Below are positions 7,335-63,955 of a DNA stretch of 64,000 bases, one piece after another. Positions within the stretch are counted from its first letter, which is position 1. Every line of letters begins with the position of its first letter. The position numbers and the translations under genes are program-made. The stretch is from IMG/VR virus record IMGVR_UViG_3300020125_000051, positions 17,008-81,007 of that record, one strand, 5' to 3'. The notes under the pieces were generated by a model that was not told where the DNA came from, made no database searches, and worked only from the letters and a program-made list of their open reading frames with translations. Origin of the DNA: a virus.

Positions 7335-8315
7335 ATGGCAGTTTACAATCCAACTGGATCTGGCAACGTTCACGTTGATAAGATTCTTACCCAGATCAGT
7401 GTGGCTTGGCCAAACACAGGTTTAGTTGGCGAACGCCTAATGCCAAGTGTTGGAGTACTTAAGCAGTCTGATAAGTACTACATCTTTGGACGTGAAGGTT
7501 GGCTTCCAGAAGATGACAACCGTGCACCTGGCACAGTAGCCAATGAGATCGCCGGTCTTGCCGTGTCTACGGACACATACTACGCCCGTGAACACTCTCT
7601 TCAGATCCCGGTAACTGACGAAGAGCGTGATAACGTTGACTCACCACTAGCACCAGATCGTGACGCGACCGAACTAGTTACGTCTAAGATTATGCTAGGC
7701 CGTGAAGTTGCTATTAAGACGCTAGTTACCACTACTTCTAACTATGCATCAGGTTTGAGCACAACTCTTTCTGGTGCTGCACAGTGGAACTCTGCTAACT
7801 ATGCAACTTCCGACCCTATCTCGGACCTTCGCACTGGCAAGGTTGCGGTTAACGCCCGTATCTTCCAGGACCCGAATGTTCTAGTGGTTCCTTATCAGGT
7901 TATGGCTGCGCTGGAAGACCACCCAGACTTCCTAGAGCGTATTAAGTACTCTGAGCGGGCTATCTTCTCGCCTGAGCTTCTTGCAGCAGTTCTTGGTTTC
8001 GAGACTGTTGTTGTGCCTGGTGTTGGTATCAACAATGCTAACCCTGGTGCTTCCGCCTCACTTGGTTACCTGTGGGGTAAGGATGTTGTTATGGCGTGGG
8101 TGCCTCCGCGCGCAGGTCTTAAGATTCCTGCCTTTGGTTATGAATTCACTTGGGGAACACAGTACGTAGATCGTTGGCGTGAGGAACCACGGAAGTCTGA
8201 TCTAATCCGTGCATCTCGTCGCTATGACCTTAAACTGGTTGCTCAGGGTGACCCAGGTTCTTCGGACGCTGGTAAAGCAATTGCCGGATATGTCATCAAG
8301 GCCGCGATTGCCTAG
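7335..8315 (+). CDS. Major capsid protein
   Basis: Synteny, strong SD GGGAGGG, VDKILTQISV.W N-terminus and W.....SDPI.D motif. Confidence 0.9.
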   Translation: MAVYNPTGSGNVHVDKILTQISVAWPNTGLVGERLMPSVGVLKQSDKYYIFGREGWLPEDDNRAPGTVANEIAGLAVSTDTYYAREHSLQIPVTDEERDNVDSPLAPDRDATELVTSKIMLGREVAIKTLVTTTSNYASGLSTTLSGAAQWNSANYATSDPISDLRTGKVAVNARIFQDPNVLVVPYQVMAALEDHPDFLERIKYSERAIFSPELLAAVLGFETVVVPGVGINNANPGASASLGYLWGKDVVMAWVPPRAGLKIPAFGYEFTWGTQYVDRWREEPRKSDLIRASRRYDLKLVAQGDPGSSDAGKAIAGYVIKAAIA

Positions 8316-17110: not shown

Positions 17111-18232
17111 ATGATGGCAGTTATTAATCCTTGTGGATTCTTACAAAATGCTGGTGCGACTCACACAGCGGAACAGGTGCGCAACTGGCATGGACTGCTG
17201 ACTGCTGGCCGAGCTAGTTCAACAAGTCTTGTTTCTCGTGGTGGTGTTAATCCTGCTTTAGGTAATCAATTACTTGTTACCCAAACTGGATCACCTTCAA
17301 TGGCAGTTATCGTAAAATCTGGACAAGCAACTATTGGTGGTTCTGAAGGTTCTAAGCAAGGCGTATACAGTGTACTAAATGATGCTGATGTTACGTTGAG
17401 CATTAGCGCAGCCCATGCAACCTTAAATAGAATTGACCTTGTTTGTTTTAAGGTTGAAGATCAAGCTTATTCAGGTTCGGTAAATTCTAGTTCATTAGTA
17501 GTTGTTACAGGTACACCAGCTAGTTCACCTTCTCCACCGACAGCCCCAAATAACTCAATAACATTGGCGCAGGTATCGATTGTTGCCAATGATACTTCTA
17601 TTACTAATAACGAGATAACGGATAAGCGCCCGTTTATGGCTGCAACGGGTGGTGTTATTGTTTGTGCAAGTACCACGCGACCTACTGCTGGTACAGTTAG
17701 TGCTGGTCAGCTTATCTATGAGACCGACACAACTAGCATTTTGCAAACAGACAATGACGGTACATCCTGGAAGAAAATTGGACCAAAGGGTGTAATCGCG
17801 CGCGTACAGCGTACCACTACGTATAGCTCGACAGGCGCTGAGATCGGCGTCCTTAGATTAGATAATGTTCCTGTAATTTCAGGAAATATCTACTTATTGC
17901 AAGTACATGGTATGAACTTTACAGGTGGAGCAGCCAACCTGAGCGTTGCAGGACGTCTTCGGGTTAACTCGGCAGGTACGGCGACTACTGGTTCTACGCA
18001 GATTGCTGATACCGGTGATGAAGTCTCAACCTCATTTGCACCATATCAAGGTACACCACTAGCCGGTATCTACGTGCCCGGAGCTAACCAATCTCTGTCC
18101 GCATTGTTCTCAGTTGCGATTACAGGTGGTACAGGTACGGCGAGCTTTACAGGGTCTGCAACTAACCCTGTGAATTTCTTAATTACTGATCTAGGTACTG
18201 ATCCTGGTACTAGCCTAGGAACGATTCTGTAG
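17111..18232 (+). CDS. Minor tail protein
   Basis: NRIDLV, GTPASSP..P, LAQV.I and ITDKR motifs; G.LIYETDT. Confidence 0.75.
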   Translation: MMAVINPCGFLQNAGATHTAEQVRNWHGLLTAGRASSTSLVSRGGVNPALGNQLLVTQTGSPSMAVIVKSGQATIGGSEGSKQGVYSVLNDADVTLSISAAHATLNRIDLVCFKVEDQAYSGSVNSSSLVVVTGTPASSPSPPTAPNNSITLAQVSIVANDTSITNNEITDKRPFMAATGGVIVCASTTRPTAGTVSAGQLIYETDTTSILQTDNDGTSWKKIGPKGVIARVQRTTTYSSTGAEIGVLRLDNVPVISGNIYLLQVHGMNFTGGAANLSVAGRLRVNSAGTATTGSTQIADTGDEVSTSFAPYQGTPLAGIYVPGANQSLSALFSVAITGGTGTASFTGSATNPVNFLITDLGTDPGTSLGTIL

Positions 18233-18240
18233 GTGATAAG

Positions 18241-18417: not shown

Positions 18418-19370
18418 CTACTGTCTATGGTTGGGATACCTCATCCCATGACGATACACCTACTAGTTTAGATGGATTGTCATTCTTTACCTGTAAGATT
18501 ACCGATGGCGACCATTGGTATGAAAACTCAACTGCAACCGCTAAGCTTACGGCGATGCGTGATTTTGGTTGTCCCATTCTTGGCACTTACCACGTCCTGT
18601 GGGGTAATGCGTCAATAGCCAACCAAGCTGCTTGGTATATTCAAACAATGGATAAAAGAATACCATGGTGGCGTGATTTTCCATATTGGATTTGTCAATC
18701 AGATAATGAACCATTTGGTTATAATGTAAAACCAACAATATCACAAATTAATGAATTTCATGATAGAGTTATAGACTTATCCAATGGAAAATTACCATTC
18801 GAACGACACATGGGTTATACTCCACAGTGGGTATATGGTGCTGGTGTAGCACAACAAAAGGTAGCTTGGTGGCAGTCTAACTATGGTACAAATCCCACAG
18901 GATGGTATCAAACTGTCTACAATAACACAGTTGGAAATAGTTCTTCAAAGTGGAATGGTCCTAAAGAAATAATGTTTTTGCAGTATGGATCAAACACCAC
19001 TATCGCTGGTCAAACGACAAGCGATGCTAACGCTTTTCGTGGTAGCCTAGAAGATTTGAAGAAAGTATTAGGAGGAGGAGAAGACGATATGACTCCCGAA
19101 CAGAACACGATGCTATACAATACTGCCCAGCTAACCTATGAGGCTTTAATTTTGGGTAACGATACCATGGGTGCCTCATTATTCCTTGGTAATCCACCAG
19201 TACAAACTGATGCAATACCGATTAAATTAGTACGCAAGGTAAACGATTTAATGACGAAAGTGACGGAACTCGAAGCCAAGATTGACGCTTTGCAAGCTGG
19301 CAGTGGTCTTACTTATGAGCAAACCGTACAGGCGGCTTTTGAGGGTGCACAAAAGGCTGAAACTGAGTAG
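18414..19370 (+). CDS. Endolysin, GH25-like muramidase
   Basis: YGWDTS, K.TDG, GTYH, D.E, WW.SNY, QY.S and D.NAF.G motifs of glycoside hydrolase family 25. Confidence 0.8.
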   Translation: MTTVYGWDTSSHDDTPTSLDGLSFFTCKITDGDHWYENSTATAKLTAMRDFGCPILGTYHVLWGNASIANQAAWYIQTMDKRIPWWRDFPYWICQSDNEPFGYNVKPTISQINEFHDRVIDLSNGKLPFERHMGYTPQWVYGAGVAQQKVAWWQSNYGTNPTGWYQTVYNNTVGNSSSKWNGPKEIMFLQYGSNTTIAGQTTSDANAFRGSLEDLKKVLGGGEDDMTPEQNTMLYNTAQLTYEALILGNDTMGASLFLGNPPVQTDAIPIKLVRKVNDLMTKVTELEAKIDALQAGSGLTYEQTVQAAFEGAQKAETE

Positions 19371-45996: not shown

Positions 45997-45997
45997 G

Positions 45998-46070
45998 TAT
46001 GGATGATGGGAGTCGAACCCATAACTAACAGTTTTTGAAACTGTTTCCTCTTCCATTGGGATACATCCAT
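45998..46070 (-). tRNA. tRNA-Leu(CAA)
   Basis: Cloverleaf; loop TTCAAAA; short variable arm. Confidence 0.9.
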
Positions 46071-50849: not shown

Positions 50850-50850
50850 G

Positions 50851-50922
50851 GTTCCACAGTAGGATTCGAACCTACACTATCACCGTTACCGGGCTGCCTC
50901 TACCAATTGGGCTATATGGAAC
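50851..50922 (-). ncRNA. tRNA-like RNA lacking an anticodon loop (CCG-GTAA-CGG tetraloop hairpin)
   Basis: Intact acceptor, D and T arms; truncated anticodon arm. Confidence 0.75.
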
Positions 50923-52935: not shown

Positions 52936-53103
52936 TCACTACCAACTAACTTAATTGATAATACTTCATTTTCTTGGGCCATGAAAATACAAACTCCACC
53001 AGCGATGAACCTAAACCAACCACCTAATTGCTTATATTCATCAGCAATTACTATAGTAGGGATAGATGGTGTCTTAACATATCTTACATCATATTTATTC
53101 ATG

Positions 53104-53176
53104 TGCTTCCGGTGAGATTCGAACTCACACTTAAAGGATTTTAAGTCCTTCGCCTCTGCCATTGGGCTACGAAAGC
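53104..53176 (-). tRNA. tRNA-Leu(TAA)
   Basis: Cloverleaf; loop CTTAAAA. Confidence 0.92.
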
Positions 53177-53230: not shown

Positions 53231-54820
53231 TTAGATTCTACCTGCGCTAAACGCAGAAACCAATTTAGGCAAGTTTGAATCTGCGCCCGCTACGTCTAGC
53301 ATACCACTATCTGTGGGATTTGCAATAGAAAATCGCGTTGGAGTACATGCAACAACAATCAACTTTGCGTCATGACCTATAAACCTGCGATAATCCTTCA
53401 ATGCAACATGAGGATGTACATTACCAGCCCATGTTTCACTATCAGTCATTACCACAAAGGTATCAACGTCGATGCCACGTTCCTTGGCATATACCATTGG
53501 CAGTGAACAATCTGTACTACCAAAATTGCGATCCTTAGTTCTTTGCATTACTTCAGCTAGTGACATATTAGGTGCTATTCCCAAATCAACAAAATTCTGG
53601 GAGAATCCCATGATTTGGTAGAATGGCTCAGTTCTGGCAATCGTCATTGACATAGCTGCGCAAACTTCGGCAGCAGTTAAGTCAATGCCAGCCATCGACT
53701 GAGACATAGAACCAGAAACATCAAGAGCTATCATGGTACGCTTGTTAGCTGGTTCTACGTACTTAAAGGCACGATAGAAACCATCATCAAGTGCATTTAC
53801 GATAACAGGATTAGTTGCCCAATTCTTTTCATAGGTGTGACTCCATGCGTACTTACGATCACGCTGACCACGCTGATGCACAGTAGATGCTAGCAAATAC
53901 TGGAAAGGATGCAAGCGCGTACGCTGAATCATTTCCTCATCTACAAGCTTATCTGCATATGCACGAGCAAAGTGCATGTCCTCGAAAGCACCAATACGAG
54001 CAAGTCTAGTGATATTACGTACTAGAGCCTGACCGTTAAGCTGTCCATTACCGAAAAGCATCTTCCATACATCAGGAACCTTTAGGAATTGAGTAGGAAT
54101 GGCTTCCCAGGGAAGATTTGGATAACGCTCTAGTGCTGAAAGCACATGTCCTATCATGGTAGATGCTTGCATCCGCTTGAATCCAGCAATTATCAGCGGA
54201 TCTACATTAACTTCATTATCAAAGCCATGCACGAAATCGCCAATTGCCTTATTCAATCCCACAGGATGTGAAAGCATGAGCAAACCCTTGTGGGTCCAGC
54301 CGTTCCGTTGACGGTACTTTACCACCTGATACGCAAGGCTGTCAACATCCTTGCTAATGTACCAATCGGCAATCGCGCGCCGCTTTGCTCGTCCCCAACC
54401 ACCTAGAAGTTTGATATATTCAGCAAACTCGAATAGATGAGTTGACGTGCGACACACCTTAGCTAAGTCCTGCGAAGATTTTGCCTTGCCAAAGGTAAAC
54501 AGCGCGGCCAAACAAAAAATTGCAGGACTATTGCGGAAAGCACGGCCAGACTGTGAGATTTCAACTACAGTATCACGAACTAACTGCTCATCACGCTCAA
54601 TTAGTTCGCGTAGAAAGTTGATGTTATCCTTAGTAAGCTTCTGCTCGTCAACATAGTATGTTCCACCTTCGGTACCCAAAATAAGAAAACGCTCTAGGCG
54701 AGTCTTATCTGTTACCTCAAACGTAAAACCACCAGCATTGTTAGCAACCTGCCGAGGATCTTCTTGCTCTGACTGTGGTATTGGTGTTCCTAGTGTTCTT
54801 GAAAATACGTTGTTTGCCAT
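53231..54820 (-). CDS. rsr: Ro60/Rsr RNA-binding protein (TROVE + vWA)
   Basis: QV.NNAGGF.F, RL.RFLILG.EGGTYY, GGWGR..RRAI..WY, KYRQR.GW.H..L...SHP, AL.RN, DVSGSM MIDAS, TDCSLPM and TDSETW.G..HP motifs. Confidence 0.96.
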   Translation of the reverse strand: MANNVFSRTLGTPIPQSEQEDPRQVANNAGGFTFEVTDKTRLERFLILGTEGGTYYVDEQKLTKDNINFLRELIERDEQLVRDTVVEISQSGRAFRNSPAIFCLAALFTFGKAKSSQDLAKVCRTSTHLFEFAEYIKLLGGWGRAKRRAIADWYISKDVDSLAYQVVKYRQRNGWTHKGLLMLSHPVGLNKAIGDFVHGFDNEVNVDPLIIAGFKRMQASTMIGHVLSALERYPNLPWEAIPTQFLKVPDVWKMLFGNGQLNGQALVRNITRLARIGAFEDMHFARAYADKLVDEEMIQRTRLHPFQYLLASTVHQRGQRDRKYAWSHTYEKNWATNPVIVNALDDGFYRAFKYVEPANKRTMIALDVSGSMSQSMAGIDLTAAEVCAAMSMTIARTEPFYQIMGFSQNFVDLGIAPNMSLAEVMQRTKDRNFGSTDCSLPMVYAKERGIDVDTFVVMTDSETWAGNVHPHVALKDYRRFIGHDAKLIVVACTPTRFSIANPTDSGMLDVAGADSNLPKLVSAFSAGRI

Positions 54821-55024: not shown

Positions 55025-55030
55025 TTGAAT

Positions 55031-55161
55031 GTTGGATATAGTTTGATAATCGGGGTTTTTGATAGCTCTTGGGCTCCGAATCGAACGGAGACCTTATACT
55101 TTTCAAGTATATATGCTACCTTTTACACTACCCTAGATAACCGACTATCGATCGACCCAAC
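55031..55161 (-). ncRNA. Y-RNA-like Y1: Ro-type stem carrying a complete tRNA-Phe-like cloverleaf
   Basis: GTTGGGTCGA..GTCGGTTATC...CCGATTATC..TATATCCAAC. Confidence 0.8.
55066..55137 (-). tRNA. tRNA-Phe(GAA)-like cloverleaf embedded in Y1
   Basis: TCTAGGG/CCCAAGA acceptor with one mismatch, TATAC-TTGAAAA-GTATA, CTCCG-TTCGATT-CGGAG. Confidence 0.7.
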
Positions 55162-55170
55162 AAAAATCTA

Positions 55171-56397
55171 TTAACCTTCTGCCATGATCTGATTATCTAT
55201 GTTTGCACCAGATGAATCTAGCACATTTCCAGAAATTGATAATCCGCCGCAGCCATCAGTGTGCTTAGCTGGAAAACCAGTACCAGGGAAAATAGGTCCA
55301 AATCTGTTGTTTAACAACGAACCGCGGTTCTGAGCACAGTAAACTGTGTACGAACCACCAACAAGTAAGTTGTTAGTAATTGTTAAGTTAGACTGAATTC
55401 CATGCCCAAAGTTTGGATCATTTGGGGGTCCAGAAGTAAATGTAGCATTGTCATCAGTCATTAAAACTGTGTTATGAATATACTGAATGTTGCTTTCGGA
55501 AGCAGAGCGCGCTGGCCAAACCTGAATACCATCAGTATGTGGATCTGGCGCTACACTATCACCCTTGAACATTCCATGTATATAAGAATCACGAATCGTG
55601 AAAACTGAGTTTGCGTCGCCACCGTTTTCGCAATTGCTAATATCGGCGCCAGTTACAAACAAAAATTCATCACCAAAAGCAGTACCACCATGCATACTAG
55701 GACCACAGAAAACAGACACATGATCCATAGTAGTTACGCCGCCACTATCGGCTGCACCAGCGGTTTCTACAACATAACCTGGAACATTGCAATTAACTGC
55801 AACATTCCTAAATGTTACATTTTGAGCTGTAATTACAGGACATCCAACAATAGTAACGTCATGAATTACTGCACCAGCAGTACCAAAGGTTAATGAGCCA
55901 CTATATGCTGGTAGACTTCCATGCGCGCCTGCCGTTGTGGCATCAGGGAAACCACAGGAACCAGGATTAGCCGCGCAATTGTTACCAGAAGGTGGTGGAC
56001 TCGTAGTAGTCGGAGGTGGAGTTGTCGTTGGTGGTGGATTAGTGGTAGTAGGTGGTGGAGTAGTAGTAGGTGGAACAGTCACCGTTGGTGATGGTGACGG
56101 AGAACCTGTTACTGTAGAACTAGGTGTTGGTGTTGGTGTTGCGGTTAGTCCTGCAATAACCTTTTGCTTGATTATAATACATTGTTGTGCTCTTGTCCGC
56201 TCAGCGGATGTAGTTGCAAATTGTAGGTCTAACTGACATTGTCTTAATAATCGTTGTGCATCGGTTAAATCTGAACTAGCATCCGCTGACGCTCGTTCAT
56301 TATTTGTAAAGATAACTAATGCACCAGTAATTAATGCCATAACTGCAAACCAAATTGCAATTTTCTGCCTTGTTGAACTTATGTGCGTTTCGAGCAT
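55171..56397 (-). CDS. Secreted protein: signal peptide, P/T linker, parallel beta-helix-like domain
   Basis: Hydrophobic N-terminus ending ASA; PPTTT repeats; PDATTAG, I.DSYIH, HTDGIQ and NN.L.GG.Y motifs. Confidence 0.75.
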   Translation of the reverse strand: MLETHISSTRQKIAIWFAVMALITGALVIFTNNERASADASSDLTDAQRLLRQCQLDLQFATTSAERTRAQQCIIIKQKVIAGLTATPTPTPSSTVTGSPSPSPTVTVPPTTTPPPTTTNPPPTTTPPPTTTSPPPSGNNCAANPGSCGFPDATTAGAHGSLPAYSGSLTFGTAGAVIHDVTIVGCPVITAQNVTFRNVAVNCNVPGYVVETAGAADSGGVTTMDHVSVFCGPSMHGGTAFGDEFLFVTGADISNCENGGDANSVFTIRDSYIHGMFKGDSVAPDPHTDGIQVWPARSASESNIQYIHNTVLMTDDNATFTSGPPNDPNFGHGIQSNLTITNNLLVGGSYTVYCAQNRGSLLNNRFGPIFPGTGFPAKHTDGCGGLSISGNVLDSSGANIDNQIMAEG

Positions 56398-56553: not shown

Positions 56554-56625
56554 ATATCGGATATATTTGCGTTAATTGGATGGTCTGCAGAAACAGTTGA
56601 TAACCAATTAGCTTTGACCCGATAT
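56554..56625 (-). ncRNA. Y-RNA-like Y2 (minimal)
   Basis: ATATCGGGTCAAAG..ATTGGTTATC..CCAATTA..TATATCCGATAT. Confidence 0.75.
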
Positions 56626-56825: not shown

Positions 56826-57590
56826 TTATACAAACCTCTTAGCGGCATAGAATGAATACAAGTTGTTAATGATTACACCTTGCTTGTATCCGGCAGCTTC
56901 GACAATCTTACCATTACCAATATAGACAAACACATGACCAATGAACGGCCAAACTATATCTCCAGGTTGTAGATTGTTGCGAGACACCCGAACACCTTGG
57001 TTAGAATAAAGGATCTGTGCATCTTGATGAGGCACATTAATTCCAACCTGAGCTAGTGACATCATCACAAGACCAGAACAATCAAATGCATATGGTCCAG
57101 CAGCAGCCCAAGAATAACGCTTGCCAACCTGAGCTAATGCGTAGTTGACAATTCTTTGCGCTCTTGAAGTGTTAGCTGATGCTACTGTGGTGGTTGCCTT
57201 AATTACTGGCTTAGTTACTGGTGCCGTGGCAGGTACCGAACTAACCACAGGTGCAGTAGGTACAAAAATTTGCTGACCTACACCAAGCTGATTGCAGTTG
57301 GCAAGTTTATTATACTGACAAATACCTGGCCAATACCCAGGATTCGAATAGACAGCGTTGGAAATACCAAAAAGACTTCCATAAGGAGAAGGATACTTTT
57401 GAGTAGTAATCCAAGTGCCAATTGGCTTCGCTACGGCCACCGATTCAACAGCTTTTGCTGTTTCTGTTGCTGCCACTACCTTCTGGTCGACTATTGTCGT
57501 CGCTCCCGCAGGAGTTGCAATGGCAAAAACGCTAATACTTATGAGTAGGCTGCCTAATGAAGCTTTTATGGCAGACTTGGATCTAGACAT
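56826..57590 (-). CDS. Secreted LysM-like + NlpC/P60 peptidoglycan endopeptidase
   Basis: Signal peptide; LysM-like SLFGIS...W..I...N....L.VGQ.I.VP; Y.W...GP..FDCSGL, LQPGD and HV..Y.G.G motifs. Confidence 0.9.
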   Translation of the reverse strand: MSRSKSAIKASLGSLLISISVFAIATPAGATTIVDQKVVAATETAKAVESVAVAKPIGTWITTQKYPSPYGSLFGISNAVYSNPGYWPGICQYNKLANCNQLGVGQQIFVPTAPVVSSVPATAPVTKPVIKATTTVASANTSRAQRIVNYALAQVGKRYSWAAAGPYAFDCSGLVMMSLAQVGINVPHQDAQILYSNQGVRVSRNNLQPGDIVWPFIGHVFVYIGNGKIVEAAGYKQGVIINNLYSFYAAKRFV

Positions 57591-57836: not shown

Positions 57837-57840
57837 AATG

Positions 57841-57900
57841 ATAAGGATATATTTTTGTCATCGTTATTTGCTGTGATAACCGATGAACTTTGACCCTTAT
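57841..57900 (-). ncRNA. Y-RNA-like Y3 (minimal, 60 nt)
   Basis: ATAAGGGTCAAAG..ATCGGTTATC..CGATGA..TATATCCTTAT. Confidence 0.72.
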
Positions 57901-57908
57901 CTCAAAAC

Positions 57909-58313
57909 TTAAATTCCGTCTAGAATGTCTGGTGCGGCTGTTTCTTCTGCTGTTGGTGCTGTCGTCGCTGGTGGCTCTGGCGATGCTGCCTCAACGGCAG
58001 TGTCGAGTGTAGTAAGTTGATTGCTCGCATCAGTTAGTGCAGTCTCGGCATCACTGAGTGCTGAAAGTGCACCAGTAACATCTGGCGAAGCCTGGCTAAG
58101 TAGCCGAGTAACATCCTTAACTAATTCAATCGTGTTTTTGAGCACTGTCTGAGTAGCTGTAGAAACTTCAGCTACCTTAGCAGTTAGTTCGTCGACGCCT
58201 GCCATTACCTGATCCACCTTTGCTGGTAGTTCTGGATCACTTACCACGGTAGTGTGGAAGTGTATGGTAGTAACGGATGATGGGATTCCATCTAGATGGA
58301 AGAAAACATCCAT
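57909..58313 (-). CDS. Acidic coiled-coil protein
   Basis: Heptad-like A/L/V pattern. Confidence 0.6.
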   Translation of the reverse strand: MDVFFHLDGIPSSVTTIHFHTTVVSDPELPAKVDQVMAGVDELTAKVAEVSTATQTVLKNTIELVKDVTRLLSQASPDVTGALSALSDAETALTDASNQLTTLDTAVEAASPEPPATTAPTAEETAAPDILDGI

Positions 58314-58336
58314 TTGACCAACTTTCTTTAGTGCAG

Positions 58337-58409
58337 AGCCACAGGTAGGAATTGAACCTACGAAAACAGGTTTTGCAGACCTGCGCCTTTACCATTCGGC
58401 CACAGTGGC
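58337..58409 (-). tRNA. tRNA-Cys(GCA)
   Basis: Loop CTGCAAA; U73. Confidence 0.9.
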
Positions 58410-58410
58410 G

Positions 58411-58487
58411 TGGGGTGTATGACGGGATTTGAACCCGCGAATGACTAGAGTCACATTCTAGCTCCTGATGCCTCCGGATCATACACC
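58411..58487 (-). tRNA. tRNA-His(GTG), G-1:C73 and CCA encoded
   Basis: Loop ATGTGAC. Confidence 0.85.
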
Positions 58488-58489
58488 AG

Positions 58490-58562
58490 TACCAACGAGG
58501 GGAGTCGAACCCCTAACAACTAGAACCTAAATCTAGCGCCTCTGCCATTGGGCTACGTTGGC
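58490..58562 (-). tRNA. tRNA-Leu(TAG)
   Basis: Loop TTTAGGT. Confidence 0.9.
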
Positions 58563-59015
58563 AAGTTATTAGGATTCCATTCATGGTATGTTACAGTTGA
58601 AATCCTTTTGATTGTACGAGTTAACACAGTTCTATTGCTAAATTGCAACATACATTCATCACAAATATTAATCATTAACTGGTGAATATTAGACATTGGA
58701 TCCCAGACCGTACTACCATATTGTCCACTTGAGTAAAATGTAGTAGCTTCTTGTGGTTGGAAATTCCATCGGTTAGTATCTCTATCCGAGTCAGGTTTAA
58801 AGACAGGTTCCAATTCTTTATCACATTTGAAACAATTAACTGGTAGCTTCATTTTTGTCTCCAGACATAAAAAGATGGTTCCTTTTGTTATCAAGAGTAG
58901 GAACCAAAAAGCTCTCCGTCAACAAGGAATTTTTTCAGCCCGGTTACGTCTGGCTTAAAATTATGTTGACTCAAACGTTTCGACGGTTACCTTTATACCG
59001 AGGTAACAGCGGTTG

Positions 59016-59642
59016 CTAATTAAGTAACGCTGTATCAGTCACAGTGTAAGAACCTCGGGAGATCCATACATAACCTGTGGTGTTGTTAAATTCAACCTGG
59101 AACATTGTTGACTTATTTACGTCAGTGCCAAATCCATTGATTGTGCCAGCGAAAGCCATGATTGGGTTATTCCACTGATCGCAAAGCTGCGCTACTGCCG
59201 CAGTACCAGCAAAGTGGTTCTTGACTGAGCGCCAAGCAAAGTTTACTAATGGAACACCACGATCATTGTTTTCAATTCGAATCTTATAGAATTGCTGCGA
59301 ATTGGCAAACAATGCTGGTTGAGCATTATCAGAAACGTAAACTGTCGTAAATCCTACGGTTCTTATGATACCCTTCCCACAGGAGACTTGAATAACCGAA
59401 GAATCTTCGATTTTCTTGCCATCTGAGTTATATCGATCAAACATATGATCAGTATCAAAGCCTAAACTTTCGCAATGAGCCTGATACACAAGTTGGCCAT
59501 CAGTACCATAGTTATAGATGGTACCTGGTGAATTTCCCAATGCTCGCATAGCTGCCGCAATTGAATTGCTGACACTTGAGCAGCCAGATAAAGTAACTAT
59601 TGCTAGCACTAGACCAGCTAGTACTACAAAACTTTTTTTCAT
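59016..59642 (-). CDS. Lipoprotein
   Basis: MKK, hydrophobic core, LSGC lipobox. Confidence 0.8.
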   Translation of the reverse strand: MKKSFVVLAGLVLAIVTLSGCSSVSNSIAAAMRALGNSPGTIYNYGTDGQLVYQAHCESLGFDTDHMFDRYNSDGKKIEDSSVIQVSCGKGIIRTVGFTTVYVSDNAQPALFANSQQFYKIRIENNDRGVPLVNFAWRSVKNHFAGTAAVAQLCDQWNNPIMAFAGTINGFGTDVNKSTMFQVEFNNTTGYVWISRGSYTVTDTALLN

Positions 59643-59643
59643 T

Positions 59644-60057
59644 TTATCCTTTATTTGTTTTATTTGTCAAATTTTGTGTTGCTCTATACTGACGATCGTA
59701 TAACCGTTTATACTCTTTACATAAATCACATCTACAATGATGATAAGTATACCCAGAACCAGTACCGTGCGGTACTGACCTATTATAGTTTTCATCATTG
59801 TTTTTTAATGCATGACAAGTTTTACATAAAACTTGGCATTTAGCTAATTCATTTATTCGCTTTGGATTTGTTTTGGCTAATGACCATACGCTCGCCACGG
59901 CGAATCCTTTGGAAGATTTATCTTTGTGATCCACTTCCAAATTTTCTTTAGAACCACACCGTTTGCATGGACCGTTTTCGTTGATCCACTCTTCTCTTCT
60001 AGCCTTAATCCAAGCCAATTGGTATTCACGTTTGTCTTCTTTTGAAGCAAAGGGCAT
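59644..60057 (-). CDS. HNH endonuclease with C-terminal CRC Zn motif
   Basis: C..CG...LEVDH, CQVLC..CH..K and HGT.SGY....CRC..C; start taken at MPFAS. Confidence 0.8.
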   Translation of the reverse strand: MPFASKEDKREYQLAWIKARREEWINENGPCKRCGSKENLEVDHKDKSSKGFAVASVWSLAKTNPKRINELAKCQVLCKTCHALKNNDENYNRSVPHGTGSGYTYHHCRCDLCKEYKRLYDRQYRATQNLTNKTNKG

Positions 60058-60080
60058 AATCACCACCCTATTATAATAAG

Positions 60081-60163
60081 CGGAAGATAAAGGATTCGAA
60101 CCTTTGGAGGTTTCCCCCACTGTCTTAGCAGGACAGCCCGATCGTCCACTCTGGCAATCTTCC
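60081..60163 (-). tRNA. tRNA-Ser(GCT)
   Basis: Loop CTGCTAA; long variable arm. Confidence 0.9.
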
Positions 60164-60216
60164 AGATGCTAGCAGAGCCACGCAACTCTGCTAGCATTTC
60201 TCCTCCCCCGGAGAAG

Positions 60217-60288
60217 AACCGATGACCAGAATCGAACTGGCATACTCTGATTGGAAGTCAGATTCCTTAACCATTAGGAGACATCGGC
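60217..60288 (-). tRNA. tRNA-Gly(TCC)
   Basis: Loop CTTCCAA; U73. Confidence 0.9.
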
Positions 60289-60290
60289 AG

Positions 60291-60421
60291 ATGTTGGATA
60301 TAACTTGTGATCGGCGTTTTGTTCTACTTCCCAATTCTGGGTTGGGCGTGCTAAATTACACTAAACTCAACAGTTTCCTGTTTTCTTGGGTTAGATAACC
60401 AATCAACTTTCGACCCAACAT
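60291..60421 (-). ncRNA. Y-RNA-like Y4: tRNA-like domain opened at the T loop
   Basis: Ro-type stem, GAAA-capped acceptor, D arm, and CCCAA-CCCAGAA-TTGGG arm. Confidence 0.75.
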
Positions 60422-60727
60422 GTAAAACATAATCCGCACCAGTGCAACATACGTTGGACGATGCGGAAGATTGATTGCCCTTCCAATCATAGCGTCTAGA
60501 ACGCTTATGGTTCCAAGCCTGTGATCTTCCCCAATATGATTGGAAGGGCATTTGCAGCACACGGGACAATGGTACCATTGTAAGGCGCCCGGTGCAACAG
60601 CAATAAAACCATGGTAGTGATGGGCTGACCTAATTTCACCACACTTATAGTTCGTCACGAAGATTATTGAACTATAAGACTACAGCCAGTACCGACCATC
60701 GATAGCACCACACCATGGAGCTAGTGC

Positions 60728-60837
60728 TATGGATATATTAGCGAATATCGGGTTTAACTAGGCGCCGAGCCATCGATGGAGTCGAACCATCTTTCGTCTG
60801 ATTAACAGTCAGATAACCAATATTCTTTCGACCCATA
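60728..60837 (-). ncRNA. Y-RNA-like Y5: tRNA-Asn-like domain opened at the D loop
   Basis: Ro-type stem, TCTGA-CTGTTAA-TCAGA, and GATGG-TTCGACT-CCATC. Confidence 0.78.
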
Positions 60838-60840
60838 ACG

Positions 60841-60911
60841 CGCGAACTGTAGGATTCGAACCCACAATAACCGCTTTGGAGACGGTTGTGTTACCATTAC
60901 ACTAAGTTCAC
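60841..60911 (-). tRNA. tRNA-Trp(CCA)
   Basis: Loop CTCCAAA. Confidence 0.9.
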
Positions 60912-61020
60912 TAGAGCAGTGGATATCTGTGATGCACTCACCACTGCGTTGTGCAATGACATACGGCCGTATGCCAACCCGCTAACCATACTTGTTGAGC
61001 TTTCGGTTAGTTCGGTCCAG

Positions 61021-61093
61021 TACCCTCAGAAGGAATTGAACCTTCTACTTCTACGTTCGTAGCGTAGCGCTCTGTCCGATGAGCTATGAGGGT
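61021..61093 (-). tRNA. tRNA-Arg(ACG)
   Basis: Loop CTACGAA. Confidence 0.9.
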
Positions 61094-61098
61094 TAAAA

Positions 61099-61232
61099 GT
61101 TTGGATATAAGTTGAAATCGGTGTTTTTATATGCGCTCTGCCACTGAGCTAATATACGGAATTTCACCGTACGATACAGGAGTCGAACCTGTGACCTCAT
61201 ATTCCTGATAACCAATTTCTGTCGACCCAAAC
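61099..61232 (-). ncRNA. yrlA: YrlA-type Y RNA (Y6): tRNA-like domain opened at the anticodon loop
   Basis: Ro-type stem, then T arm ACAGG-TTCGACT-CCTGT, loop-closed acceptor, and D arm TAGCTCAGTGGCAGAGC. Confidence 0.88.
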
Positions 61233-61238
61233 CAAAGA

Positions 61239-61403
61239 CTAATTAACAAATGATTGGAACGCAGATATTACGTCGTTGTCGTCACTTACAGCTTCAACAA
61301 TACGTTTAGCTGCCTTTGCCAATTCTGAATCTGGCGCTGTTTCAATGAGATCCTTTAAATCTATTTGTGAAACATCAACCAGTGGTGTAAAGACTTGATC
61401 CAT
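61239..61403 (-). CDS. FxSxx-COOH (FxsA)-like peptide, 54 aa
   Basis: Translated by hand: MDQVFTPLVDVSQIDLKDLIETAPDSELAKAAKRIVEAVSDDNDVISAFQSFVN; SD GAGG. Confidence 0.72.
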   Translation of the reverse strand: MDQVFTPLVDVSQIDLKDLIETAPDSELAKAAKRIVEAVSDDNDVISAFQSFVN

Positions 61404-61567
61404 TTTTACCTCATTATAGAAATGTGTCTGGCGCTGTCCCCAATATCACAGCCTCTAGCAACCTACCCCACCAGCTACATTATTTTGATTACGTGTCTCG
61501 AACCAACACCACACGCTTGTCAGACCCATACTGGTGCAGGATGTCTGATTTCCACTAAAAAGCTAAT

Positions 61568-61635
61568 GATACAGATATAAAAACGCTATCGGAGTAATCA
61601 TCCAGTAAGATAACCGACAGCAATCGACCCGCATC
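61568..61635 (-). ncRNA. Y-RNA-like Y7 (minimal)
   Basis: GATGCGGGTCGA..GTCGGTTATC..CCGATAGC..TATATCTGTATC. Confidence 0.72.
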
Positions 61636-61644
61636 ATAAAAAGT

Positions 61645-61798
61645 CTCGTGAATATAGTTAAGAATCGACCGTTTATTCTCACACGCTATGGACATAAACC
61701 ACTACGTGCTGCCACTGCCATGTGGCGTGCTACTGGAGTAAATCCAGTAACAGGATTCGAACCTGTAATTAGATAATCGATTCAATTCGACTCACGAG
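61645..61798 (-). ncRNA. Y-RNA-like Y8: T arm, closed acceptor and an extra domain
   Basis: Compensated stem GAGTCGA/TATATTC and ATCGA/TCGAT; ACAGG-TTCGAAT-CCTGT; TACTGGA/TCCAGTA. Confidence 0.75.
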
Positions 61799-62160
61799 TC
61801 AAATCCTTGCCAATCTTTAAAATCTGGAAAAGCTTCTTCAATCGTGTATGTCAACCTTGGTCGAGTGGGATTTATTACCCTAGTTTTCGACTTAGGCTTT
61901 TTGGCACGATCATTATTGCAATTTATATGCGCAAGTACCATATTATCATCTGATCGTGCTTCTTCTTTTGTACAGAATTGAAGTTCTTTAATGTGCTCAC
62001 GGGACGCTTCGTCTCTGCGACATGGATTGAAGCAGATTTGACATATCCCGTTATCACGAACAAAGATTCGATTCAATTGCACAGTTTTATCGTTTGAATC
62101 TTTTCTATTTCTACGGGCTGTAGCATTCATTGTTTCATAATTAGGCTTTTTACGGCTCAC
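61792..62160 (-). CDS. HNH endonuclease
   Basis: RD.GICQIC, S.EHI and N.VLAH..CN motifs. Confidence 0.8.
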   Translation of the reverse strand: MSRKKPNYETMNATARRNRKDSNDKTVQLNRIFVRDNGICQICFNPCRRDEASREHIKELQFCTKEEARSDDNMVLAHINCNNDRAKKPKSKTRVINPTRPRLTYTIEEAFPDFKDWQGFDS

Positions 62161-62272
62161 ATATTATCACCACCTAGCTTTTTTAGTGCAACTCTTCTTC
62201 CATCACCACGGCATGTGAACATGTTGGGCGGCAGATGCTTCATAATGGAACCTTTAGTTGCCATCGTATCAG

Positions 62273-62346
62273 TGGCGGGAATCGGATTCGAACCGATGAC
62301 CTCTCGGCTTATGAGGCCGGAATGCTGACCACTGCACTACCCCGCT
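62273..62346 (-). tRNA. tRNA-Met(CAT), initiator-like 1:72 mismatch
   Basis: Loop CTCATAA; A1-C72 mismatch. Confidence 0.88.
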
Positions 62347-62432
62347 ATGATGGTGGATTGTTGGAAATTGCTTAATAGAGCCAACTTCTCTTCGGATATT
62401 ATACCGGATATTGGACATCCACCATGCCCTAG

Positions 62433-62504
62433 TACACTCAGAAGGAATCGAACCTTCAACCCTCGCGGTGTAAACGCGATGCTCTGCCATTGAGCTACGA
62501 GTGC
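62433..62504 (-). tRNA. tRNA-Val(TAC)
   Basis: Loop TTTACAC. Confidence 0.92.
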
Positions 62505-62805
62505 AAAGTGCAGCAGAATTTCCGGGGAATGGCGGGGGCCATTTTAATTCTGCTGCACGTCTAGCTGTCCAATTAATAAGTATGTGGGTATCCTTTTTCG
62601 CCCCTTAAGCGATACCCGTTCTTAATCTGTGGACTACAATTCGGGAATTGTAATCGGGACTATCCGCGTGGTAGTGGTGAAACTACCACGCTCTAACGCA
62701 GCCGCACAAGGGTAAAATTGGACGAAAACCCCTCGGGCGCATTAGGCTTTTGAAAACTATCAAATTTTCAAAGGTCTATTTGGGTGTCAACCCGCTGTCA
62801 CATCT

Positions 62806-62834
62806 ACGGTACGGGGTCGAGTCACCGCTGTCAA
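62806..62834 (-). promoter_or_regulatory. Housekeeping-sigma promoter facing the tRNA/Y-RNA island
   Basis: TTGACA-17 nt-TACCGT (TAnnnT -10 element). Confidence 0.65.
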
Positions 62835-62951
62835 GACTTTATCTGAAAAATCTATTTACGCAGGTCAGAGCCTTGATCAATTGATCAGGTTCGATGTAGA
62901 CATGTGTACGAACGTGCACATTCAGACAAATGTGCACGAACGTACGCAAAT

Positions 62952-63955
62952 CTAGTTTACTAAAAAGTCCTTACTTTTTTGATCTAACCATAGCCACATA
63001 AACCCACCAGTTTGCGGTGTTACTGCAAACGATGACATTCCATCTACGCGCTTATGATCCATCAATCTGGCTATCAGACCAAAAATTTCCGCATTGGTAT
63101 CAGATATTCGATAAGGAAATTTTGATGAACCAGAAGATATGATATTAGCCATAAAATGCGCCAAGTATCCAAGAAGGATCATCACGATCTGGAATGATTG
63201 CTAGTGCCTTAATTGCTTTGTCTAACAGTTGATTGGCTTGATGCAAAATTATTGGTGGGCTAATAAGCTCTGCGCCCCAATCGTTAGCTTCATAAGTCCG
63301 TGCTGACAAAATGAGACCAGGGTAGTCATATGAACAATATGTTTCAATTGTTACCCCAATTTTTTGCATAGCTTCTCGGCGTCGAGCCCAGTAGCCAACA
63401 CTTACTTCCGGATCTACCCATCTTTCAGTAAATCCAACAATTTCTGCCAATAGCAAGTTTTCAATATCATCAACAGTTTGATGCCTATCTTCAAGAATAT
63501 GCCGTAGCTTACTGGCTGGCTTATACTTGAAATTCCACTTTGAATCTCTATTGCCAAGATTATAGCCATAAGCAAGAATTGATCTAGGACTACTTCCCAT
63601 TATCATCTACCTTATTCACGTAATCCATTAGGTTTTCATGATCTTCATAACACGTTTTATTCTTACATGGAGTTTCGTGCTTATAAACTGTTACTAGTTT
63701 ATAACAATCTGGTCGATTCTTTGCATTTGGATGACATAGCCGTTCGTTATTATATCCACGACTAAAACCACCAGCAAAGTTTGAACACTGTCGACCACAG
63801 TGATCACATTTTGTCACTTTACAAACTGCATCTGAACCAAAAAGGCTTCTCTTTGGTTTTGGTCTATTGTCAACTAACGGCATTATTTTCCTCTCACACT
63901 CTTTTAATTTAAAGCTACTTACGAGGTTTACGAGCGCACCATGGTCGTTTTGCAT
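62952..63955 (-). other. Three hypothetical ORFs (62952, 63145, 63590)
   Basis: Overlapping - strand ORFs. Confidence 0.5.

What the first reader, a model, noticed from the sequence alone, without database searches (positions are those of the whole stretch)
60291..60421. Y4: tRNA mimic circularly permuted at the T loop
Order inside the stem: TCTA, AACCCAA, an ACAG-GAAA-CTGT cap, TTGAGTT (acceptor closed by a GNRA hairpin), TA-GTGT-AATTTA-GCAC-G (D arm), CCCAA-CCCAGAA-TTGGG (anticodon arm, CAG, with C33), AAG, TAGA. The Ro-type stem replaces the T loop and the anticodon arm is exposed.
Basis: partly seen in the sequence, partly recalled or inferred. Interest (0 to 1): 0.75.

Follow-up and report, generated by a model that had tools for sequence, protein, structure and literature searches.

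The report
Phage Y RNA with T-loop-less tRNA core
This 131-nt element is a real, conserved phage Y RNA next to a phage Ro60 gene, and its inner domain keeps a tRNA's acceptor-like, D and anticodon arms but has the Ro60-binding stem where the T loop should be, an arrangement not described for Y RNAs so far.

Summary
On the minus strand, 60291-60421 has a Y-RNA stem (GNCGAA motif, GGUUAUC). This stem encloses a four-way junction made of a 4-bp closing stem (UCUA/UAGA), a capped acceptor-like hairpin, a 4-bp D-like arm and a 5-bp anticodon-like arm.

It is one of eight Y RNAs in a 29-tRNA array that also carries a phage Ro60 gene (53231-54820). The genome is an 81-kb soil virus.

Three metagenomic homologues (L043, L041, L104) share the architecture:
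- All 13 pairs of the three inner helices pair in every sequence, and 9 of them change on both sides.
- U8, G10-C25, A14, A21 and G26 are invariant.
- A strict descriptor finds only these four elements in 3.3 Mb, against 1 hit in 56,550 shuffles.

Three points limit the reading:
- The "CAG/Leu anticodon" is not conserved: the loops are 6-8 nt and differ in sequence.
- The D loop lacks GG, so no tRNA elbow can form.
- The Rfam tRNA and YrlA models do not hit Y4.

Best reading: a Ro60-bound Y RNA whose effector module is a tRNA core permuted at the T loop. It is a new variant beside YrlA and Yrn1. Ro60 binding, the partner and the function are inferred, not shown.

The parts
60291..60421 (-). 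Whole Y RNA ('Y4'), 131 nt
   Evidence: Sequence. Covariance models R1 and R2 score it at 155 and 113 bits. Three homologues were found.
60415..60421 (-). Outer stem P1, 5' strand (AUGUUGG)
   Evidence: Pairs with 60291-60297. The helix is kept in all homologues (helix 1).
60291..60297 (-). Outer stem P1, 3' strand (CCAACAU). It ends 2 nt before tRNA-Gly(UCC).
60407..60414 (-). GUCGAAAG, which matches the GNCGAAN0-1G motif of bacterial Y RNAs (Ro60-binding strand)
   Evidence: Sequence. The motif is defined in PMC4201824. All eight Y elements of the window share it, some in variant form.
60399..60405 (-). Stem P2, 5' strand (UGAUUGG); overlaps the conserved GGUUAUC at 60394-60400
   Evidence: Pairs with 60308-60314. 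Helix 2 is 93% paired, and 3 of its pairs change on both sides.
60308..60314 (-). Stem P2, 3' strand (CCGAUCA)
60392..60395 (-). Closing stem P3, 5' strand (UCUA), in the position of the 3' strand of a T stem
   Evidence: Pairs with 60323-60326. Helix 3 is 100% paired, and 2 of its 4 pairs change on both sides.
60365..60391 (-). Acceptor-like hairpin H1: ACCCA/UGAGU with a C-A mismatch, a GAAA(A) bulge, then ACAG-GAAA-CUGU
   Evidence: Sequence; the inner hairpin appears in the MFE. All three homologues have a hairpin at the same place, with a different sequence and length.
60362..60364 (-). Connector UUA (U8-A9 equivalent)
   Evidence: The homologues have UA or UG here, and the U is invariant.
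60348..60361 (-). D-like arm GUGU-AAUUUA-GCAC: a 4-bp stem; the loop starts and ends with A and has no GG
   Evidence: Helix 4 is 100% paired, with 2 pairs changed on both sides and G10-C25 invariant.
60330..60346 (-). Anticodon-like arm CCCAA-CCCAGAA-UUGGG
   Evidence: Helix 5 is 100% paired, and all 5 pairs change on both sides. The loop is not conserved.
60323..60329 (-). Variable-loop equivalent AAG plus the P3 3' strand UAGA
   Evidence: AAG-UAGA is identical in L104; L043 and L041 have AGGUC as the variable loop.
60315..60322 (-). A-rich 3' side of the internal loop between P3 and P2 (ACAAAACG), opposite 5' UUA
   Evidence: An AAA core is conserved in all four sequences.
53231..54820 (-). 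Phage Ro60 orthologue (529 aa), the presumed protein partner
   Evidence: Pfam vWA_Ro60 E 5e-59 and TROVE E 1.7e-33. It is 52-57% identical to the 'Ro-like RNA binding protein' of Streptomyces phages.
60216..60288 (-). tRNA-Gly(UCC) immediately 3' of Y4. Its 5' processing would set the Y4 3' end.
   Evidence: ARAGORN; Rfam 61.9 bits.

Best explanation
Y4 is a phage-encoded Y RNA. It is most likely transcribed within the long minus-strand tRNA/Y-RNA array and released by tRNA-processing enzymes. RNase P cleavage at tRNA-Gly, 2 nt downstream, would set its 3' end.

Its outer bulged stem (GNCGAA motif, GGUUAUC) would bind the phage's own Ro60. Its inner module folds as a tRNA-type four-way junction: an acceptor-like hairpin stacked on a short T-stem-like helix that runs on into the Ro60-binding stem, and a D-like arm stacked on an anticodon-like arm. 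Topologically this is a tRNA circularly permuted at the T loop. It probably arose from the junction of two tandem tRNA copies.

By analogy with other Y RNAs, the module would work as the effector or adaptor end. It would present the tRNA core and an exposed C/A-rich loop to a host partner, either a protein that binds the D/anticodon half of tRNA or the KH/S1 domains of an exoribonuclease such as PNPase. That would tether or gate Ro60 during infection.

Shown here: the sequence features, the architecture, its conservation and covariation, the genomic link to Ro60 and the position in the tRNA array. Inferred: Ro60 binding, processing, coaxial stacking, the partner and the function.
For: - Eight elements with the same Y-type stem lie on the same strand as a Ro60 gene.
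- The 5' strand matches the GNCGAAN0-1G motif of bacterial Y RNAs (PMC4201824).
- In the roughly 90 Ro60 loci searched with R1, every full-length Y-stem match is co-oriented with Ro60.
- Model R1 was built from the window and L104 only. It aligns L043 and L041 with every pair of the closing stem, D arm and anticodon-like arm canonical.
- On the four sequences, 94% of cells pair and 14 of 27 pairs change on both sides. None of 500 shuffles reaches these values, and slid controls pair at 34-44%.
- U8, G10-C25, A14, A21 and G26 are invariant, and the connector lengths 0 / 2-3 / 1 / 3-5 match tRNA.
- The MFE folds of L043 (z -4.45) and L041 give the four-way junction unaided.
- L043 gets a partial Rfam tRNA hit, E 0.0039.
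- The strict descriptor gives 4 real elements against 1 hit in 56,550 shuffles.
- Y4 abuts the 5' end of tRNA-Gly(UCC). The L104 homologue starts at the 3' end of a tRNA-Gly(UCC).
- Phage Ro60 binding to phage Y-like RNAs and host PNPase has been shown for Thermus phage phiLo (PMC12135203).
Against: - There is no expression, end-mapping or binding data.
- Y4 itself gets no Rfam tRNA or YrlA hit at E<=10.
- Y4's own closing stem (4 A-U-rich bp) and lower acceptor-like stem (with a mismatch and a bulge) are weak and are not in its MFE.
- The anticodon-like loop varies in length and sequence. Any partner that reads a specific anticodon is therefore not conserved.
- With no T loop and no G18G19, the elbow used by many tRNA-binding proteins is missing.
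- Only four sequences support the covariation, and the alignment was fitted by a model that carries the structure.
- Stem similarity alone can give high model scores: a minimal Y RNA, L105:5750-5824, scores 46 bits.
Confidence: 0.7

Rival explanations
1. Anticodon-nuclease decoy. The exposed anticodon-like arm mimics a specific host or phage tRNA, Leu-CAG in this phage. It would soak up or misdirect a host tRNA-cleaving defence or toxin such as VapC, PrrC or a HEPN nuclease, with Ro60 protecting or recycling the decoy.
For: The D and anticodon arms and the tRNA core nucleotides are kept while the elbow is dispensed with. This would suit enzymes that read the lower half of tRNA. The L043 homologue has a canonical 7-nt loop, CUCAUAC, with U33 and A37. 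The phage carries tRNA-Leu with CAA, UAA and UAG anticodons but none with CAG. Loop diversity among the homologues could reflect different targets. A related Streptomyces phage has RNA ligase and polynucleotide kinase genes in the same tRNA/Ro array, which suggests a tRNA-damage setting.
Against: Y4 has C33 instead of the universal U33. Two homologues have loops of 6 and 8 nt. No nuclease, host or cleavage data exist. Loop variation is explained equally well by lack of constraint. No RNA ligase or kinase was recognised among the window ORFs tested.
Confidence: 0.12
2. Structured relic. The module is a leftover of the tRNA-gene rearrangement that created this Y RNA. It is kept only as a stable, nuclease-resistant filler that closes the Ro60-binding stem. 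It has no tRNA-related partner, and the tRNA resemblance is historical rather than functional.
For: The two minimal Y RNAs in the same array, 57840-57901 and 56554-56625, have only short loops. The Ro stem therefore needs no module. The hairpin loops are not conserved. Y4 has drifted far enough from tRNA to lose Rfam tRNA similarity.
Against: Phages whose Ro60 proteins are only 49-59% identical to the window's keep the same four-helix architecture, with compensatory changes and invariant core nucleotides (U8, A14, A21, G10-C25, G26). This points to selection on the tRNA-core fold itself rather than on any stable hairpin.
Confidence: 0.13
3. Not a Y RNA or tRNA mimic at all: a chance set of hairpins, part of the 100-aa ORF 60356-60658, or an alternative fold in which the first CCCAA pairs with UUGGG.
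For: An ORF overlaps the 5' half of the element. The first CCCAA could pair with UUGGG (sequence). Y4's own z-score is only about -2.6.
Against: The ORF has no PHROG hit, and three homologues conserve the structure rather than a reading frame. The alternative pairing has no counterpart in any homologue. The shuffle control gives 1 hit in 56,550.
Confidence: 0.03

Closest known systems
YrlA (Rfam RF02553), the tRNA-like Y RNA of Salmonella, Mycobacterium and many phages (Chen et al. 2014, PMC4201824; structure preprint 10.1101/312249)
   Same: It is a Ro60-linked small RNA encoded near Ro60 and has the GNCGAA motif strand. A tRNA-derived module is enclosed by the Ro60-binding stem, with an acceptor-like stem closed by a loop and a D-like arm. 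A classical YrlA-order element lies 0.7 kb away in the same array, at 61098-61233 (Rfam YrlA 24.6 bits).
   Different: YrlA has the order (V)-T arm-acceptor hairpin-D arm, so the Ro stem stands where the anticodon stem would be and the T-loop/D-loop elbow is kept. Y4 has acceptor hairpin-D arm-anticodon arm, so the Ro stem stands where the T loop would be. It has no T loop and no GG in the D loop. The Rfam YrlA model gives no hit on Y4 at E<=10.
Deinococcus radiodurans Yrn1
   Same: It is a Y RNA with a tRNA-like module that includes an 'anticodon arm' with a 5-bp stem and a non-canonical 6-nt loop (PMC4201824). One Y4 homologue also has a 6-nt loop. Yrn1 tethers Ro60 (Rsr) to PNPase.
   Different: In Yrn1 the Ro stem takes the place of the acceptor stem and a T arm is present. 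In Y4 an acceptor-like hairpin is present and the T loop is absent.
Canonical tRNA (Rfam RF00005) and circularly permuted tRNA genes
   Same: Shared features are a four-way junction with tRNA connector lengths, U8, G10-C25, A14, A21, G26, a 4-bp D stem and a 5-bp anticodon stem. The homologue L043 scores 24 bits against RF00005.
   Different: Y4 has no T loop, no G18G19, no free acceptor end or CCA site, C33 in the loop, and no RF00005 hit. Nothing suggests it is processed into a functional tRNA.
Thermus phage phiLo Yrl1/Yrl2 with phage Ro60 (PMC12135203)
   Same: These are phage-encoded Y-like RNAs beside a phage Ro60 and carry the CGAA motif. Binding to phage Ro60 and host PNPase has been shown experimentally.
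   Different: Those RNAs are described as stem-bulge-stem Y RNAs; no tRNA-like module is reported in the passages read. The Ro60 proteins were not compared here.

Membership tests
Bacterial/phage Y RNA (Ro60-associated ncRNA) | Encoded near, and co-oriented with, a Ro60/Rsr (TROVE) gene | tested here: met
   Ro60 lies at 53231-54820 on the same strand, 5.5 kb downstream. The homologues lie 1.8-4 kb from Ro60 on the same strand.
Bacterial/phage Y RNA (Ro60-associated ncRNA) | 5' and 3' ends pair into a long bulged stem carrying the GNCGAAN0-1G motif on the 5' strand | tested here: met
   GUCGAAAG lies at 60407-60414. Helices P1 and P2 are conserved with compensatory changes. The motif definition is from PMC4201824.
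Bacterial/phage Y RNA (Ro60-associated ncRNA) | Physically bound by Ro60 | not testable with these tools
   Needs EMSA or co-immunoprecipitation. The complex-prediction tool takes proteins only.
YrlA (Rfam RF02553) | Module order T arm - acceptor-like stem-loop - D arm, with a conserved T loop | tested here: not met
   Y4 has no T-loop motif and its order is acceptor-like hairpin - D - anticodon-like arm. There is no RF02553 hit at E<=10, whereas the neighbouring element hits it.
tRNA / tRNA-like structure | Cloverleaf four-way junction with tRNA connector lengths and the core nucleotides U8, A14, A21 and G10-C25 | tested here: met
tRNA / tRNA-like structure | T loop and D-loop G18G19 forming the elbow (L shape) | tested here: not met
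   The D loops are AAUUUA, AAAUA, AGUAA and ACGUGCA, and there is no T loop.
tRNA / tRNA-like structure | 7-nt anticodon loop with U33 and a purine at 37 | tested here: not met
   Y4 has CCCAGAA, with C33. Only L043 (CUCAUAC) is canonical; the other two loops are 6 and 8 nt.
tRNA / tRNA-like structure | Scores with the Rfam tRNA covariance model | tested here: not met
   No hit on Y4 at E<=10. L043 scores 24 bits, below the gathering score of 29.

The most novel reading that the evidence does not exclude
This clade of soil phages carries a kit of Ro60-bound Y RNAs, each displaying a different cut of the tRNA fold. Y4 would be the member that shows only the core and anticodon half. On this reading, Y4-type RNAs are adaptors or decoys that let phage Ro60, with a host exonuclease, intercept host factors that attack or inspect the anticodon half of tRNAs, such as anticodon nucleases and tRNA-targeting toxins. 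The anticodon-like loop would then diversify in an arms race.
Probability: 0.12. Interest if true: 0.85.

Novelty: new variant of a known kind. Interest (0 to 1): 0.58.

Why it matters
Y RNAs are thought to work as two-part adaptors: one end holds Ro60 and the other end chooses the partner. Two tRNA-like partner ends were known, YrlA with the Ro stem at the anticodon position and Yrn1 with it at the acceptor position.

A third, conserved form keeps the tRNA core and anticodon arm but gives up the elbow. This shows that the tRNA scaffold has been re-cut repeatedly around the Ro60 stem. It also narrows what the unknown partners recognise: something that does not need the T-loop/D-loop elbow.

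The element sits in a phage that carries eight Y RNAs, its own Ro60 and 29 tRNAs. That gives a compact system for asking what Ro60 RNPs do during infection. The four natural variants amount to a ready-made mutational series for probing and binding experiments.

Tried and rejected
- **Exact-pattern scans of IMG/VR.** The anticodon-like arm (17-mer) and the GGTTATC-to-hairpin junction (16-mer) gave 3 and 17 loci. All were unrelated coding sequence, so they are chance matches.
- **Megablast** of 58000-63000 against cultured phages gave no match.
The closest Ro60 relatives (60-65% identity) could therefore not be fetched by that route.
- **MAFFT** misaligned the D arm and closing stem. It was replaced by model-based alignment.
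- **Local alignment of Y4 to the window's tRNAs** gave only weak matches. The best were tRNA-Leu(CAA) and a 9-nt D-arm identity with tRNA-Trp. No donor tRNA can be named.
- **Alternative pairing** of the first CCCAA with UUGGG has no counterpart in the homologues and was rejected.
- **Promoter and terminator scans** of 53-64 kb gave no more sites than shuffles.
- **No further Y4-type elements were found:**
  - 76 IMG/VR Ro60 loci gave only duplicates of L041 and L104.
  - 80 bacterial Ro60 loci gave none.
  - Streptomyces phage Phredrick has three Y RNAs of other types.
  - These searches covered only 6-20 kb around Ro60.
- **Sequencing runs.** No RNA holder is listed. Contigs of three soil runs that cover Y4 are identical to the window, so there is no microdiversity to test pairing.
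- **The genome search** on the records behind L041, L043 and L104 failed because the records are not held.
- **Literature.** Two review papers on bacterial Y RNAs are not held in the library. The novelty judgement therefore rests on PMC4201824, PMC12135203, the listing of papers that mention YrlA and my own knowledge.

Full report
**Setting.** The window is bases 17008-81007 of an 81,007-bp IMG/VR virus record with direct terminal repeats. It is a tailed phage: it has a T4-type large terminase, a Mu-like portal and a family-A DNA polymerase. Positions 44.3-62.5 kb hold 29 tRNA genes, all on the minus strand. Inside this array lies a 529-aa Ro60 orthologue at 53231-54820, minus strand. It matches Pfam vWA_Ro60 at E 5e-59 and TROVE at E 1.7e-33. 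Its nearest named relatives are the 'Ro-like RNA binding proteins' of Streptomyces phages, at 52-57% identity. The nearest metagenomic relatives reach only 60-65%. The same DNA occurs in many soil metagenome runs.

**The observation.**
- An outer 7-bp stem, AUGUUGG/CCAACAU.
- GUCGAAAG, which matches the GNCGAAN0-1G motif that Chen et al. define for bacterial Y RNAs (PMC4201824).
- A second 7-bp stem, UGAUUGG/CCGAUCA, overlapping a conserved GGUUAUC.
- Inside that: UCUA, an acceptor-like hairpin, UUA, GUGU-AAUUUA-GCAC, G, CCCAA-CCCAGAA-UUGGG, AAG and UAGA.

Three details need correcting. Two letters were counted twice. A GAAA(A) bulge in the acceptor-like hairpin was omitted. That hairpin also has a C-A mismatch. 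Seven further elements with the same stem signature lie on the same strand between 55.0 and 61.8 kb. Their inserts differ:
- Two are minimal, with only short loops.
- One has the classical T arm / capped acceptor / D arm order and gets a weak Rfam YrlA hit of 24.6 bits.
- One has an anticodon arm plus a T arm.
- One encloses a whole tRNA-Phe.

**Homologues.** I therefore collected Ro60 loci from metagenomes (80 loci), from IMG/VR (76 further loci) and from bacterial genomes (80 loci).

A covariance model built only from Y4 and one look-alike (L104) found Y-type stems across these loci. Every full-length match was on the Ro60 strand. Three loci carry the Y4 architecture: L104:13347-13461, L043:7107-7229 and L041:2395-2521. 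L137 and L113 are the same contigs as L104 and L041, held in IMG/VR. Their Ro60 proteins are 49-59% identical to the window's, so these phages are well diverged.

**Structure test.** L043 and L041 were not used to build the model. Even so, in the model alignment every pair of their closing stem, D-like arm and anticodon-like arm is canonical. Counting pairs on the four sequences gave these results:
- 94% of cells pair, against 34-44% when the 3' partners are slid by 1-3 columns.
- 14 of 27 pairs change on both sides.
- None of 500 column shuffles reaches the observed values.
- The three inner helices are 100% paired, and 9 of their 13 pairs show double changes. All five pairs of the anticodon-like stem are among them.

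The acceptor-like hairpin differs in sequence and length in each member but always sits directly after the closing stem. The tRNA core nucleotides are invariant: U8, G10-C25, A14 and A21 (the first and last D-loop bases) and G26. Two members have the typical variable loop AGGUC. RNAfold alone returns the four-way junction for L043 (z -4.45) and for L041. For Y4 and L104 it returns only the three hairpins, because the closing stem is weak.

A strict descriptor of this architecture found exactly these elements at 1131 GGTTAT[CT] anchors in 3.34 Mb. It gave one hit in 56,550 shuffled controls. L043 also scores 24 bits (E 0.0039) against the Rfam tRNA model, with the T arm skipped. The arms therefore form, are conserved and are tRNA-derived.

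**What is not supported.**
- The four anticodon-like loops are CCCAGAA, CUCAUAC, UCCGCCAA and CUCCAA. They are 6-8 nt long, and only L043's is canonical. 'CAG, Leu' is therefore a feature of this one phage, and C33 departs from tRNA.
- All four D loops lack GG and there is no T loop, so the tRNA elbow cannot exist.
- Y4 gets no Rfam tRNA or YrlA hit at E<=10.

The module is best called a tRNA core, or lower-half, mimic.

**How it most likely works.** No promoter or terminator signal stands out above shuffles. The element ends 2 nt before tRNA-Gly(UCC). In L104 the homologue begins at the 3' end of a tRNA-Gly(UCC). The simplest reading is co-transcription with the tRNA array and release by tRNA-processing enzymes.

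By analogy with characterised Y RNAs, the stem would bind Ro60 and the module would engage a second factor. The precedents are Yrn1 tethering Rsr to PNPase (PMC4201824) and phage phiLo Ro60 with its Y-like RNAs and host PNPase (PMC12135203). Selection has kept the junction core rather than the loops. I therefore favour a structural adaptor that shows the D/anticodon half and a C/A-rich loop to its partner.

A decoy for anticodon nucleases remains possible but is unsupported. A functionless relic is unlikely given the covariation.

The permuted order is what the junction of two tandem tRNA copies would give: the 3' T-stem and acceptor strands of the first copy, a spacer, then the 5' acceptor strand, D arm, anticodon arm and 5' T-stem strand of the second. 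This origin is inference only.

**Comparison and novelty.** Phage Ro60 genes and phage Y RNAs with tRNA-like domains are known (PMC4201824, PMC12135203). YrlA places the Ro stem at the anticodon position, and Yrn1 places it at the acceptor position. In the papers I could read I found no description of a Y RNA with the Ro stem at the T-loop position. Two reviews were not available.

The type was absent from 80 bacterial Ro60 loci and from Streptomyces phage Phredrick. The 76 further IMG/VR loci held only duplicates of L041 and L104. Only the Ro60 flanks were searched in each case.

I class Y4 as a new variant of a known kind, of moderate to good interest. My scans confirm the eight elements and several of the module types.

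Noticed in passing
window 60422-60727 (- strand): The 306-nt spacer between two Y RNAs folds very strongly: -110.5 kcal/mol, z -4.87, and 0 of 100 shuffles fold as well. It has several long perfect stems. There is no Rfam hit, and the overlapping 100-aa ORF has no PHROG hit. It may be another structured RNA.
   Followed up: partly
window 45997-46070, 50850-50921, 53103-53176, 58489-58562 (- strand): Four tRNA genes with Leu anticodons (CAA, UAA x2, UAG) are only 72-74 nt long. They lack the long variable arm typical of bacterial tRNA-Leu.
   Followed up: no
window 55029-55163 (- strand); also L082 ~8096-8227 and L057:7451-7582: A complete tRNA-like cloverleaf sits inside a Y-type stem that extends from its acceptor end. 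ARAGORN calls it tRNA-Phe GAA and Rfam scores it at 55.9 bits. The same arrangement occurs in two metagenomic relatives.
   Followed up: partly
window 60726-60839 (- strand); L057:1775-1889, L071:5310-5423, L105:6282-6395, L043:8586-8687: The neighbouring Y RNA, with an anticodon arm plus a T arm inside the Y stem (partial Rfam tRNA hit, 21 bits), has clear homologues in at least four related loci. This module type is therefore also conserved.
   Followed up: partly
window 55171-56397 (- strand): A 408-aa ORF lies between two Y RNAs, immediately upstream of Ro60 and the tRNA-in-a-stem element. It has no Pfam or PHROG match.
   Followed up: partly
L110 (Streptomyces phage Phredrick OR553903.1) 17721-17846, 18092-18236, 19142-19275: Three unannotated Y-RNA-type elements lie just upstream of the annotated Ro-like gene, inside its tRNA array. 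The same array carries RNA ligase and polynucleotide kinase genes and a tmRNA.
   Followed up: partly
loci L003-L109: In the roughly 90 Ro60 loci searched, every full-length Y-type stem match lies on the Ro60 coding strand. Many loci carry 3-6 Y RNAs with different inserts.
   Followed up: partly
window 56826-57590 (- strand): An NlpC/P60 peptidase-domain protein (254 aa) is encoded in the middle of the tRNA/Y-RNA array.
   Followed up: no
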